Below are positions 6,001-9,000 of a stretch of 64,000 nt of DNA, piece by piece; positions within the stretch are counted from its first letter, which is position 1, and each line of letters starts with the position of its first letter. Position numbers: made by a program. The stretch lies in assembly GCA_000165345.1 (NCBI GenBank), contig CM000431.1:1024001-1088000 (forward strand), written 5' to 3'.

Positions 6001-9000
6001 CCTCAGTGCAAGAATATGGAAGGTTGCCACAATATACTTCTCTAGAGTCTTTGTTATTTGTATTCTGTCTCTTTCTTGGTTGACTGTTATCATCATTTCC
6101 TTGATAAGAACGCTTTGGAGTATCATTCTTTGTAATTTTGTTTTCCTTGTTATTGTTTAGCTCGCTTTCTGCTTTTCTCTTACTCTTATTCATTTCAACT
6201 TCTGATTCTGATGAAGAATTTGATGATTTCACAGATTTCGATACTTTTTTGGCTTTTTCATTATCGCTTTCAGAGTCTGATGAGCTGGATGAATCAGAAG
6301 AAGAGCTATCAGACATTGCTTTCTTTGCCGTAGTTGATGCTGCTGCTTTGGTATTCTTCTTTGGTTTCTCGTCTTCTGAAGATGAAGAATCAGAAGAGCT
6401 TGAAGAATCTGAAGAACTATTTGATATGTTCTTCTTCATTGGTGTTGCTGCTTTAGCATTCTTCTTTGGTTGTTCATCTTCAGAAGAAGAGTCTGAATCA
6501 GAAGATGAAGATGAAGAGGAGCTATTTGAAATATTCTTCTTCATTGGTGTTGCTGCTTTAGAATTCTTCTTTGGTTGTTCGTCCTCAGAAGATGAGGAAG
6601 AGTCTGAAGATGAGGAAGAGGAAGAGCTATCAGACATTGCTTTCTTTGCTGGAGTCGATGCTGCTGCTTTAGAATTCTTCTTTGGTTGTTCATCCTCAGA
6701 AGATGAAGAAGAGTCTGATGATGAAGAACTATCAGACATTGCTTTCTTTGCTGGAATCGATGCTGCTGCTTTGGTATTCTTCTTTGGTTGTTCGTCCTCA
6801 GAAGATGAAGAAGAGTCTGATGATGAGGAAGAGCTATCAGACACTGCCTTTTTTGCAGAAGCTTGTGTTGTTACCTTAATATTCTTCTTTGGTTGTTCGT
6901 CCTCAGAAGATGAGGAAGAGTCTGATGATGAAGAACTATCAGACATTGCTTTCTTTGCTGGAGTTGGAATTACTGCCTTAGTATTCTTCTTTGATTTCTC
7001 ATCCTCTGAAGATGAAGAATCAGAAGAGCTTGAAGAATCTGAGGAACTATTTGATATGTTCTTCTTCATTGGTGTTGCTGCTTTAGCATTCTTCTTTGGT
7101 TGTTCATCTTCAGAAGAAGAGTCTGAATCAGAAGATGAAGATGATGAAGAGCTGTTTGAGATACTCTTCTTCATCGGTGCTGCTGCTTTGGCATTCTTCT
7201 TTGGTTGTTCATCTTCAGAAGAAGAATCTGAGTCAGAAGATGAAGATGAGCTATTTGAGATGTTCTTCTTCACTGGTGCTGCTGCTTTGGTATTCTTCTT
7301 TGGTTGTTCATCCTCAGAAGATGAGGAAGAGTCTGATGATGAAGAACTATCAGACATTGCTTTCTTTGCTGGAGTTGGAATTACTGCCTTAGTATTCTTC
7401 TTTGATTTCTCATCCTCTGAAGATGAAGAAGAACCTGAAGAAGAATCAGTAGAAGATTCTGGAATCTTAGTATTATTCATTTCAGACTTCTTAGAACCCT
7501 TTTTATTATCGTTACTCTTATTCTTAATACTTGTTAGCTTCTTTTCAGCCTTCTTTACCATTACAAAGCTAGAAGTATCAGAATCATCACTTGAAGTATC
7601 TGTTGAGTTTTCAACAATTTTTGTTTCAATTGGTTTTTTGGCGATTTTAACTGATTTTGATTTCTAAAAATAATTAATTAGATAAATGAAACTGTATTAT
7701 ATAAAGATGATTGACTTACCGACATGGTGATAGTACACTAAAGTTTAAATATTAATATTATTTTTTTGTTTTAATCAATATTGTCAAGCCTGACACTATT
7801 TTTAGTCTTTTTTGACTTTATTTTTTTTTTTTTATCGGCCATTAAATATATTATCTCACCCTAAAGACAGTACGAGACGGATACATTGCCGGTATATTTT
7901 TTTTTTAAATTATTAAAATATTTTTGAAACCTTAAATATAAAATTTTAGATTTATGTAAATTTTGACATTTGGCGAACTTAATTTTAAATTAATGAACTT
8001 TTTATTATCAAAAAAAATTTTAAATTAAAGGACTATATATTCTAGTTTCTTACATATACTGTAATTAGCTTTAATATACTAGAAAGAAAATCATATAAGA
8101 ATACAATATTGGAATTGAAAAATGAGTAAAATAAAGACAAATATTAAGGAGAAATCTGAAAAAAAGAAGGAAAAACGATCTAAGGAGGTTGAAAAAAACT
8201 CTAAAAAGAAAGTATCAGAAATTTTAAATGAGCCAGTAAATATTGAAAAGACTCTTGAAAAAAAGAAAAAATCCAAGTCAAAACAATTAGATGAAAATCA
8301 TGAAGAAAAAAATATTTGTAGTGACAAACAGGCTAAAGAAGAGGATCTGAAGGTGAAAAAAAAATCTAAAGGATCAAAAAAGGCGAAGAAAATTAAAAGC
8401 GGATGTTGGACAACTGATATGATAAATGAAAGCATTCAAAATTTGGAAAGTATGTTAAATGATGAATCTGGAAAATTATCAAAATCCAAAAAGCGAAGAA
8501 TAATAATGAGACTCTCAAAACTAAAAAAGGGTCTTAGAGGAGAAGTTGAAATTGGAGGACAAATCCAAAAAAGTATTAAAACAATTAAGAGGGAAATGAA
8601 ACAAAAAAGTATGAATTCAAGTATATCACTTAGGAAAAATTCAAATGTAGTTTGTTTATGTTGTAGAAAGAAAGGTCATCAGATGTCTGATTGTAGGTAT
8701 TATAAACAAACAAATGAAGAAGCTGAAAATGGAGATAATGAAATAAATAGTATTAGTGAAAGAAATGCATCAGGAAAAGAAGTATTTAAATGCTTTTTAT
8801 GCGGAGAATTAGGACATACTCTTAAAGACTGTAAAAAACCAAGAAACGATAACTCTGTATTACCATTTGCTAGCTGTTTTAGATGTGGGAAAACTGGACA
8901 TATAGTCGCTTTTTGTCCAAATAACGAAACAGGATCTATATATCCAAGAGGAGGAAGCTGTAATATATGTGGGTCAGTTAAACATCTAGCTAGAAACTGT

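What the first reader, a model, noticed from the sequence alone, without database searches (positions are those of the whole stretch)
7560..7740. The nucleolin-like gene probably has a two-codon first exon and a 56-nt intron.
Immediately upstream of the long ORF on the minus strand, the sequence caccATGTCG is followed by a perfect GTAAGT donor. A T-rich tract ending in AG lies 56 nt further on. Splicing joins ATG TCG in frame to 34 extra Lys/Ser/Asp-rich codons (KSKSVKIAKKPIETKIVENSTDTSSDDSDTSSFV). These run directly into the annotated Met.

The in-frame TAG that terminates the ORF upstream is the intron's own 3-prime end. Micro first exons with short AT-rich introns are typical of the few spliced genes in Cryptosporidium-like genomes. 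Automated callers would miss this one and start at 7561.
Basis: seen in the sequence. Interest (0 to 1): 0.55.

Follow-up and report, generated by a model that had tools for sequence, protein, structure and literature searches.

The report
Known two-codon first exon, Cryptosporidium nucleolin

Summary
On the minus strand, ATG TCG (7725..7720) is followed by GTAAGT. A 56-nt AT-rich intron (7719..7664) ends in TTTTTAG. Splicing joins Met-Ser in frame to 34 codons that run into the 711-codon ORF, giving 747 aa.

The window is C. parvum chromosome 3. The gene is identical to GenBank CP044420.1 (IOWA-ATCC), which already carries a gene at exactly 5426..7725 with a 747-residue product. Span minus CDS is 56 nt, so this is the same model. 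The paper describing that annotation states that its introns are 100% supported by RNA-seq.

Comparison with five other Cryptosporidium species supports the splice independently:
- ATGTCG|GT(A/G)AGT is kept in all six species.
- Intron lengths are 52, 54, 56, 167, 170 and 179 nt, with little sequence similarity.
- Every join is in frame.
- The 34-codon extension varies mainly at third codon positions (28/32, against 11/33 and 8/32).
- The internal Met is Ile in two species.

The verdict is real and already known. The small new point is that the C. bovis, C. xiaoi and C. ryanae gene models omit this micro-exon and appear 5'-truncated.

The parts
7720..7725 (-). Exon 1 coding part: ATG TCG (Met-Ser). 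There is a purine at -3 and an in-frame TAG 5 codons upstream.
   Evidence: The hexamer is identical in all six Cryptosporidium species. TCG makes up only 2-9% of Ser codons in the same gene. It is the start of the annotated gene in CP044420.1.
7664..7719 (-). Spliceosomal GT-AG intron, 56 nt, phase 0 after codon 2, 18% G+C.
   Evidence: The annotated span minus the 747-aa CDS is 56 nt. Orthologous introns of 52, 54, 167, 170 and 179 nt sit at the same position.
7714..7719 (-). 5' splice site GTAAGT.
   Evidence: It is invariant except for GTAGGT in C. ryanae. GTAAGT starts 84% of Cryptosporidium introns (PMC2483917).
7676..7681 (-). Candidate branch-point motif CTAATT. The putative branch A is at 7678, 14 nt upstream of the last base of the intron.
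   Evidence: Read. CTAATT is the commonest branch-like hexamer in C. parvum introns, at 9.4% (PMC2483917). CTAAC/TAAC-like motifs lie near the 3' end of the canis, bovis, xiaoi and ryanae introns. This is an inference; the branch point was not tested.
7664..7673 (-). T-rich tract plus AG acceptor (ttatttttAG). The in-frame TAG of the upstream reading is the last 3 nt of the intron.
   Evidence: AG|AA is invariant in six species.
7562..7663 (-). 5' part of exon 2: 34 codons (KSKSVKIAKKPIETKIVENSTDTSSDDSDTSSFV) that become coding only through the splice.
   Evidence: Variable columns by codon position are 11/33, 8/32 and 28/32, and all indels are multiples of 3.
5426..7561 (-). Rest of exon 2: the 711-codon ORF plus stop. 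It starts at the internal Met, which is residue 37 of the spliced protein.
   Evidence: The Met is replaced by Ile in C. ryanae and C. serpentis.
6300..7444 (-). About 11 tandem copies of a 102-105-nt unit encoding Ser/Asp/Glu-rich acidic stretches alternating with Lys-rich stretches.
5834..6037 (-). RRM 1.
   Evidence: Pfam RRM_1, E 8.3e-36, two stretches.
5561..5782 (-). RRM 2.
   Evidence: The best solved-structure match covering both RRMs is nucleolin 9cb5_A, E 2.1e-25.
5498..5548 (-). Short Gly/Arg-rich (GAR-like) tail, GGGGRGAGSGGGRGG.
   Evidence: Read directly from the translation.

Best explanation
The nucleolin-like gene of Cryptosporidium parvum chromosome 3 (probably legacy ID cgd3_4150) is a two-exon gene. 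Transcription starts upstream of 7725. The pre-mRNA carries an initiator ATG followed by one Ser codon. A canonical U2-type intron follows (GTAAGT ... CTAATT ... T-tract ... AG; 56 nt, phase 0). The spliceosome removes it, joining Met-Ser to Lys-3. The product is a 747-aa protein made of a conserved basic/acidic N-terminal segment, about 11 acidic Ser-rich repeats, two RRMs and a short Gly/Arg tail. Without splicing, the ATG at 7725 gives only a 15-residue peptide.

Shown here: the sequence anatomy, identity with the deposited gene model, conservation of the splice signals and of the frame in six species, and the coding-type substitution pattern of the 34-codon extension.

Taken from the literature: RNA-seq support for the annotated introns.

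Inferred: the branch point, the transcription start, the use of ATG 7725 as the only initiator, and the legacy gene ID.
For: (1) Anatomy is confirmed.

(2) The window matches GenBank CP044420.1 (GCA_015245375.1, C. parvum IOWA-ATCC) with 1 mismatch in 19,114 nt and none in the gene. That record holds a gene at window 5426..7725 (-) with a 747-residue product, so 56 nt are removed. By my reading of the sequence, 7719..7664 is the only GT-AG interval of 56 nt that keeps the frame open.

(3) Baptista et al. [quoted passage not shown]

(4) Orthologous loci were reached through the neighbouring zinc-knuckle gene. ATGTCG|GTAAGT is present in C. canis, C. bovis, C. xiaoi and C. serpentis, and GTAGGT in C. 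ryanae. Introns of 52, 167, 170, 54 and 179 nt all end in AG|AA and all give uninterrupted ORFs of 733-812 aa.

(5) Intron lengths are 1, 2, 2, 0, 2 and 2 modulo 3, and 39 of 44 alignable intron columns vary. In the exon-2 extension, codon positions 1, 2 and 3 vary in 11/33, 8/32 and 28/32 columns, and indels are multiples of 3.

(6) The deposited C. canis (733 aa) and C. serpentis (789 aa) models also contain an intron of exactly 52 and 54 nt.

(7) Met37 is Ile in C. ryanae and C. serpentis, so it cannot be the start there.

(8) The Ser-2 codon is TCG in all six species, although TCG is a rare Ser codon in this gene (2-9%). This fits selection for G at donor position -1.

(9) The intron is typical for the species. 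GTAAGT starts 84% of introns; median length is 61 nt; AT content is 78%; CTAATT is the commonest branch-like motif (PMC2483917). Mean intron G+C is 22% (PMC4637869).

(10) None of the other 16 long ORFs in the window yields such a model.
Against: I saw no transcript reads, ESTs or peptides. The RNA-seq support rests on a general statement in the annotation paper, not on a record for this particular intron.

The tool reports only the gene span and product length, not the CDS join. Identity of the deposited intron with 7719..7664 is therefore deduced, though tightly constrained.

Scans of JGI metagenome contigs for the spliced junction and for exon 2 found nothing, but the locus is simply absent from that collection.

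A shorter isoform starting at Met37, from a downstream transcription start or from leaky scanning, cannot be excluded in C. parvum.

The six species are not independent samples; C. bovis and C. xiaoi are very close.
Confidence: 0.93

Rival explanations
1. There is no splicing. The gene is a single exon translated from the ATG at 7561 (711 aa). The upstream ATGTCG-GTAAGT...AG arrangement and the 34 open codons would then be a coincidence inside the 5' UTR, with ATG 7725 a short upstream ORF.
For: The 711-aa ORF is complete and starts with a plausible MVKKAEKK. One ATGNNNGTAAGT in 64 kb is not significant on its own. The deposited models of C. xiaoi, C. bovis and C. ryanae have no intron.
Against: The donor, acceptor, ATG and frame are kept in six species, while the intron sequence and length diverge. 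The 34 codons show third-position variation and indels in multiples of 3. Met37 is Ile in two species. The curated C. parvum model is spliced, and its introns are stated to be RNA-seq supported.
Confidence: 0.03
2. The intron is real and spliced, but both starts are used. A second population of transcripts, or leaky scanning, initiates at Met37 (7561). This would give a 711-aa isoform that lacks the conserved N-terminal segment.
For: Met37 is kept in C. parvum, C. canis, C. bovis and C. xiaoi. The transcription start was not mapped here.
Against: Met37 is Ile in C. ryanae and C. serpentis, so no conserved requirement for a second start exists. ATG 7725 has a purine at -3 in all six species. 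Nothing in the data calls for a second isoform.
Confidence: 0.1
3. The true start lies further upstream and exon 1 is longer than two codons, as in the deposited C. serpentis model. That model begins 141 nt upstream of ATGTCG.
For: The C. serpentis record has a 789-aa product with the same 54-nt intron but 47 extra N-terminal codons.
Against: In C. parvum an in-frame TAG lies 5 codons upstream of ATG 7725. The 5' flank is 44/52 variable with no coding pattern. The C. parvum and C. canis models both start at ATGTCG. The C. serpentis extension has no counterpart in the other species.
Confidence: 0.02

Closest known systems
Annotated gene on GenBank CP044420.1 (C. parvum IOWA-ATCC, GCA_015245375.1; Baptista et al. 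2022, PMC8744675). Probably legacy ID cgd3_4150, called 'RNA recognition motif protein' or 'cutinase negative acting protein'.
   Same: The DNA over the gene is identical. The gene ends are the same (window 5426..7725), the product length is the same (747 aa), and the same 56 nt are removed.
   Different: Nothing detectable differs. The legacy ID is inferred from gene order relative to the INS block, which starts at cgd3_4170, and from the published descriptors. It was not read from a record.
Typical Cryptosporidium parvum spliceosomal introns (Irimia & Roy 2008, PMC2483917; Isaza et al. 2015, PMC4637869).
   Same: It has the GTAAGT donor, which starts 84% of introns. It is short (56 nt against a median of 61). 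It is AT-rich (82% against 78%). It has a CTAATT branch-like motif and sits next to the 5' end of the gene.
   Different: The first exon is at the extreme of shortness, with only 6 coding nt. I did not measure how common 2-codon first exons are genome-wide.
Nucleolin / yeast Nsr1 / fission-yeast Gar2 family of nucleolar RNA-binding proteins.
   Same: It has N-terminal alternating acidic Ser-rich and basic stretches, tandem RRMs and a C-terminal Gly/Arg-rich tail. Database homologues are named nucleolin. The best PDB match is nucleolin.
   Different: It has two RRMs, as I recall for the fungal and plant members (not tested here), rather than four as in vertebrates. The GAR tail is very short (about 15 residues). 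Nucleolar localisation and function were not tested.
5'-proximal introns after a very short first exon in intron-poor eukaryotes, for example yeast ribosomal-protein genes (from my own knowledge).
   Same: There is a single intron placed immediately after the start codon region, with near-consensus splice signals, in a ribosome-biogenesis-related gene.
   Different: There is no evidence here for any regulatory role of the intron. The yeast introns are much longer.

Membership tests
U2-type (GT-AG) spliceosomal intron | 5' splice site GT, ideally GTAAGT, complementary to U1 snRNA | tested here: met
   GTAAGT lies at 7719..7714. It is kept in 5 of 6 species, with GTAGGT in C. ryanae.
U2-type (GT-AG) spliceosomal intron | 3' splice site YAG preceded by a pyrimidine-rich tract | tested here: met
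   ttatttttAG lies at 7673..7664. An AG acceptor followed by AA is invariant in six species.
U2-type (GT-AG) spliceosomal intron | Branch-point sequence (CTRAY-like) 10-40 nt upstream of the acceptor | tested here: inconclusive
   CTAATT lies at 7681..7676, and CTAAC/TAAC-like motifs occur in four orthologues. However, C. parvum has no clear branch consensus (PMC2483917), and no lariat data exist.
U2-type (GT-AG) spliceosomal intron | Removal restores an open reading frame, while the retained intron interrupts it | tested here: met
   The spliced CDS of 747 aa has no stop, and read-through stops after 15 codons. The same holds in all six species.
U2-type (GT-AG) spliceosomal intron | The position is conserved in orthologues, while the intron sequence and length evolve freely | tested here: met
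   Lengths are 52, 54, 56, 167, 170 and 179 nt, and 39/44 alignable intron columns vary. By contrast, 1/12 columns vary in ATGTCGGTAAGT.
U2-type (GT-AG) spliceosomal intron | Spliced transcripts observed | not testable with these tools
   There is only the published statement that the annotated introns of this assembly are 100% RNA-seq supported (PMC8744675). The metagenome scan for the junction was uninformative.
Nucleolin / Nsr1 / Gar2 family | Two or more tandem RRM domains in the C-terminal half | tested here: met
   Pfam RRM_1, E 8.3e-36, two stretches. The best PDB match is nucleolin 9cb5_A, E 2.1e-25, across both RRMs.
Nucleolin / Nsr1 / Gar2 family | N-terminal domain of acidic Ser/Asp/Glu stretches alternating with basic stretches | tested here: met
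   About 11 repeats of SSSSSDSSSSSEDEQPKKN.KAA..PAKKAMSD.
Nucleolin / Nsr1 / Gar2 family | C-terminal Gly/Arg-rich (GAR/RGG) domain | tested here: inconclusive
   There is only a short GGGGRGAGSGGGRGG. It has no RGG/FGG repeats of the usual length.
Nucleolin / Nsr1 / Gar2 family | Nucleolar localisation and a role in pre-rRNA processing | not testable with these tools
   There are no experimental data in hand.

The most novel reading that the evidence does not exclude
The invariant ATGTCG|GTAAGT micro-exon and its 5'-proximal intron have been kept across the genus, from intestinal to gastric Cryptosporidium, in a genome that has lost most introns. One reading is that the intron itself is functional, for example through intron-dependent expression or autoregulation of a ribosome-biogenesis gene. 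It would then be more than a neutral relic. A more modest and near-certain by-product is that the deposited C. bovis, C. xiaoi and C. ryanae gene models are 5'-truncated and the C. serpentis model is probably over-extended.
Probability: 0.1. Interest if true: 0.35.

Novelty: already known. Interest (0 to 1): 0.1.

Why it matters
For C. parvum it changes nothing, because the curated reference annotation already has this model.

Its practical value is as a check on annotation quality. The same micro-exon is missing from the deposited models of at least three other Cryptosporidium species. Those proteins therefore lack 34 to 140 N-terminal residues, including the most conserved N-terminal motif (KKPIE...STDTSSDDSDTSSFV). 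This shows that ab initio callers do drop two-codon first exons in this genus. A simple comparative screen for ATG-NNN-GTAAGT upstream of ORFs with long open 5' extensions recovers them.

Tried and rejected
- Exact look-up of the 747-aa and 711-aa proteins in the 15-billion-protein collection found neither. The 711-aa product is also on no contig. The history of the older cgd3_4150 model (711 or 747 aa) could therefore not be established.
- A homology search with the full protein was swamped by low-complexity Ser-rich hits and returned no Cryptosporidium protein.
- Searching with the RRM region gave only a C. andersoni fragment. Its contig ends inside the repeats, so the 5' end was not available.
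- Scans of metagenome contigs for the spliced junction and for exon 2 found 0 hits each. The locus is not in that collection, so this says nothing about splicing.
- Supplements of the annotation paper and of the 2026 phosphoproteome paper are not held. The Isaza 2015 supplement lists cgd3_4150 only in a Ka/Ks table.
- I considered whether the long introns of C. bovis, C. xiaoi and C. ryanae, or the conserved intergenic block, hide a snoRNA or another known RNA. Rfam gave only sub-threshold chance hits. The alignment fold has no covariation and an energy of -2.25 kcal/mol. I rejected this idea.
- I considered that the antisense 509-aa ORF at 6138..7667 (+) might be a gene. It is the mirror image of the tandem repeats and is not in the annotation. 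I rejected this too.

Full report
**1. The observation.**
On the minus strand the window reads ...tatcaccATGTCG|GTAAGTCAATCATCTTTATATAATACAGTTTCATTTATCTAATTAATTATTTTTAG|AAATCAAAATCAGTT....
- ATG TCG occupies 7725..7720.
- The GTAAGT donor occupies 7719..7714.
- The interval 7719..7664 is 56 nt and ends in a T-rich tract plus AG.
- From 7663, 34 codons (KSKSVKIAKKPIETKIVENSTDTSSDDSDTSSFV) run without a stop or a Met into the ATG at 7561, which heads the 711-codon ORF 5426..7561.
- Joining 7720 to 7663 gives a 2244-nt CDS with no internal stop, encoding 747 aa.
- Unspliced read-through from ATG 7725 ends after 15 codons.

**2. More than chance?**
ATGNNNGTAAGT occurs once in the window, at this site. 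With 0.35 expected, that count alone is weak. I applied the same model search to all 17 ORFs of 250 aa or more in the window. The search looked for an ATG, up to 10 codons, a donor, a 30-250-nt intron, and an in-frame AG inside the open 5' extension. Only this gene gives a model with a GTAAGT or GTRWGT donor.

**3. What the locus is.**
The neighbouring 330-aa CCHC zinc-knuckle protein (8122..9114, +) is encoded exactly on GenBank CP044420.1, chromosome 3 of Cryptosporidium parvum IOWA-ATCC (GCA_015245375.1). The window and that record differ at 1 of 19,114 compared bases (window position 46) and at none of the 2,300 bases of the gene.

The gene product has two RRM_1 domains (E 8.3e-36). Its closest solved relative is nucleolin (9cb5_A, E 2.1e-25). 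Database homologues are named nucleolin. It carries about 11 tandem 102-105-nt repeats encoding acidic Ser-rich and Lys-rich stretches and a short Gly/Arg tail. 'Nucleolin-like' is therefore a fair name.

From gene order, this is probably cgd3_4150. The insulinase (INS) block starts at cgd3_4170. cgd3_4150 has been described as a protein with RNA-recognition motifs and as a 'cutinase negative acting protein'. This ID assignment is an inference.

**4. The model is already annotated.**
The NCBI record has a gene at locus L001 7305..9604 (-), which is window 5426..7725, with a product of 747 residues. The span is 2300 nt and the CDS with its stop is 2244 nt, so 56 nt are removed. By my reading of the sequence, the only GT...AG interval of 56 nt that starts before the first read-through stop and keeps the frame is 7719..7664.

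The paper describing that annotation used ab initio and evidence-trained predictors, followed by manual curation of all genes. [quoted passage not shown] I could not look at reads myself.

**5. Independent comparative test.**
Using the zinc-knuckle neighbour as an anchor, I fetched the orthologous loci of C. canis, C. bovis, C. xiaoi, C. ryanae and C. serpentis.

All six species have ATGTCG followed by GTAAGT, or GTAGGT in C. ryanae. Each has an intron ending in AG|AA, and each join gives an uninterrupted ORF:

| Species | Intron (nt) | Spliced ORF (aa) |
|---|---|---|
| C. parvum | 56 | 747 |
| C. canis | 52 | 733 |
| C. bovis | 167 | 760 |
| C. xiaoi | 170 | 812 |
| C. ryanae | 179 | 775 |
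| C. serpentis | 54 | 742 |

- The intron lengths are not multiples of three, apart from the 54-nt C. serpentis intron.
- Intron sequences are largely unalignable; 39 of 44 shared columns vary.
- Only 1 of 12 columns of ATGTCGGTAAGT varies.
- In the stretch between the acceptor and the internal Met, codon positions 1, 2 and 3 vary in 11/33, 8/32 and 28/32 columns. All indels are multiples of three. This is the signature of a translated sequence.
- The resulting N-termini align as MSK.K...KKPIE...STDTSSD(D/E)SDT(S/T)SFV(M/I)VKKA.
- The internal Met of C. parvum is Ile in C. ryanae and C. serpentis, so it cannot be the start there.
- The Ser-2 codon is TCG in every species, although TCG is only 2-9% of the roughly 200 Ser codons of the same gene. 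This fits selection for G at donor position -1.
- Position -3 of the ATG is a purine in all six species.

**6. How typical the intron is.**
GTAAGT begins 84% of Cryptosporidium introns. C. parvum introns have a median length of 61 nt and 78% A+T, and CTAATT is their commonest branch-like hexamer (PMC2483917). Their mean G+C is 22% (PMC4637869).

This intron is 56 nt with 18% G+C. It starts with GTAAGT and has CTAATT at 7681..7676, so the putative branch A lies 14 nt upstream of the last base of the intron. It is an ordinary member of its class. The branch point itself is an inference.

**7. Mechanism and rivals.**
The best explanation (confidence about 0.93) is a constitutively spliced phase-0 intron after codon 2, with ATG 7725 as the initiator.
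- 'No splicing, start at 7561' is contradicted by points 4 and 5 (about 0.03).
- A minor Met37-initiated isoform cannot be excluded in C. parvum, but nothing requires it (about 0.1 as an addition, not an alternative).
- A longer exon 1, as in the deposited C. serpentis model (141 nt further upstream), is excluded in C. parvum by an in-frame TAG five codons upstream. The 5' flank also shows no coding-type conservation.

**8. What is new.**
For C. parvum there is nothing new.
- The deposited C. xiaoi model (778 aa) starts at the Met homologous to 7561.
- The C. bovis model (718 aa) starts 42 codons into the spliced protein.
- The C. ryanae model (635 aa) starts 140 codons in.
- The C. andersoni model is a 274-aa fragment at a contig end.

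These look like annotation errors that could be corrected.

**9. Verdict.**
The novelty class is 'already known' and the interest is low (0.1). The only reading with some novelty is that the genus-wide retention of this micro-exon and intron reflects a function of the intron itself. That reading is untested and unlikely (about 0.1).

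Noticed in passing
window 7850..7894 (-) and 7782..7795 (-): There are two conserved non-coding elements in the 396-nt divergent intergenic region between the nucleolin-like gene and the zinc-knuckle gene. The first is TACCGGCAATGTATCCGTCTCGTACTGTCTTTAGGGTGAGATAAT. The second is a TGTCA-N4/5-TGACA palindrome. Both are kept in C. canis, C. bovis, C. xiaoi, C. ryanae and an unnamed species (Logan SRR31860986), at similar distances from the ATG. Neither is recognisable in C. 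serpentis. The first element is single-copy in the window. There is no Rfam match and no covariation, so these are probably promoter elements.
   Followed up: partly
L008 2095..4544 (C. bovis), L011 1919..4527 (C. xiaoi), L010 1983..4489 (C. ryanae), L009 2382..4805 (C. serpentis), L004 71..895 (C. andersoni): The deposited orthologous gene models disagree with the conserved structure. The C. bovis (718 aa), C. xiaoi (778 aa) and C. ryanae (635 aa) models lack the micro-exon and intron and appear 5'-truncated; spliced models give 760, 812 and 775 aa. The C. serpentis model uses the same 54-nt intron but an ATG 141 nt further upstream. The C. andersoni model is a 274-aa fragment at a contig end.
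   Followed up: yes
window 6300..7444 and 6138..7667 (+): About 11 tandem copies of a 102-105-nt unit lie inside the nucleolin-like gene. They create a 509-aa antisense shadow ORF that is not a gene. Short-read assemblies break at this gene: the Logan contigs L002 and L007 and the C. andersoni contig all end here. Published work reports indels in cgd3_4150 between species.
   Followed up: partly
window 9268..56263 (-): A tandem array of about a dozen ORFs, all on the minus strand. The first two are confirmed M16 (insulinase-like) peptidases; the rest were not scanned for domains. This is probably the known block of 11 INS genes, cgd3_4170 to cgd3_4280, near the end of chromosome 3. One member (35044..36720) is only 558 aa.
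   Followed up: no
window 48579..52109 (-) and 52529..56263 (-): These two ORFs of the same tandem array have 45 and 26 open codons upstream of their first ATG. No GTAAGT-type micro-exon model fits either of them. I did not check whether their annotated starts are right.
   Followed up: no
window 56..131 (-): A tRNA-Met (anticodon CAT) gene is the only Rfam or ARAGORN hit in the 64-kb window.
   Followed up: no
window 46: There is a single-base difference (G here, A in CP044420.1) in 19,114 compared bases. The window therefore comes from a different but nearly identical C. parvum assembly or isolate.
   Followed up: no
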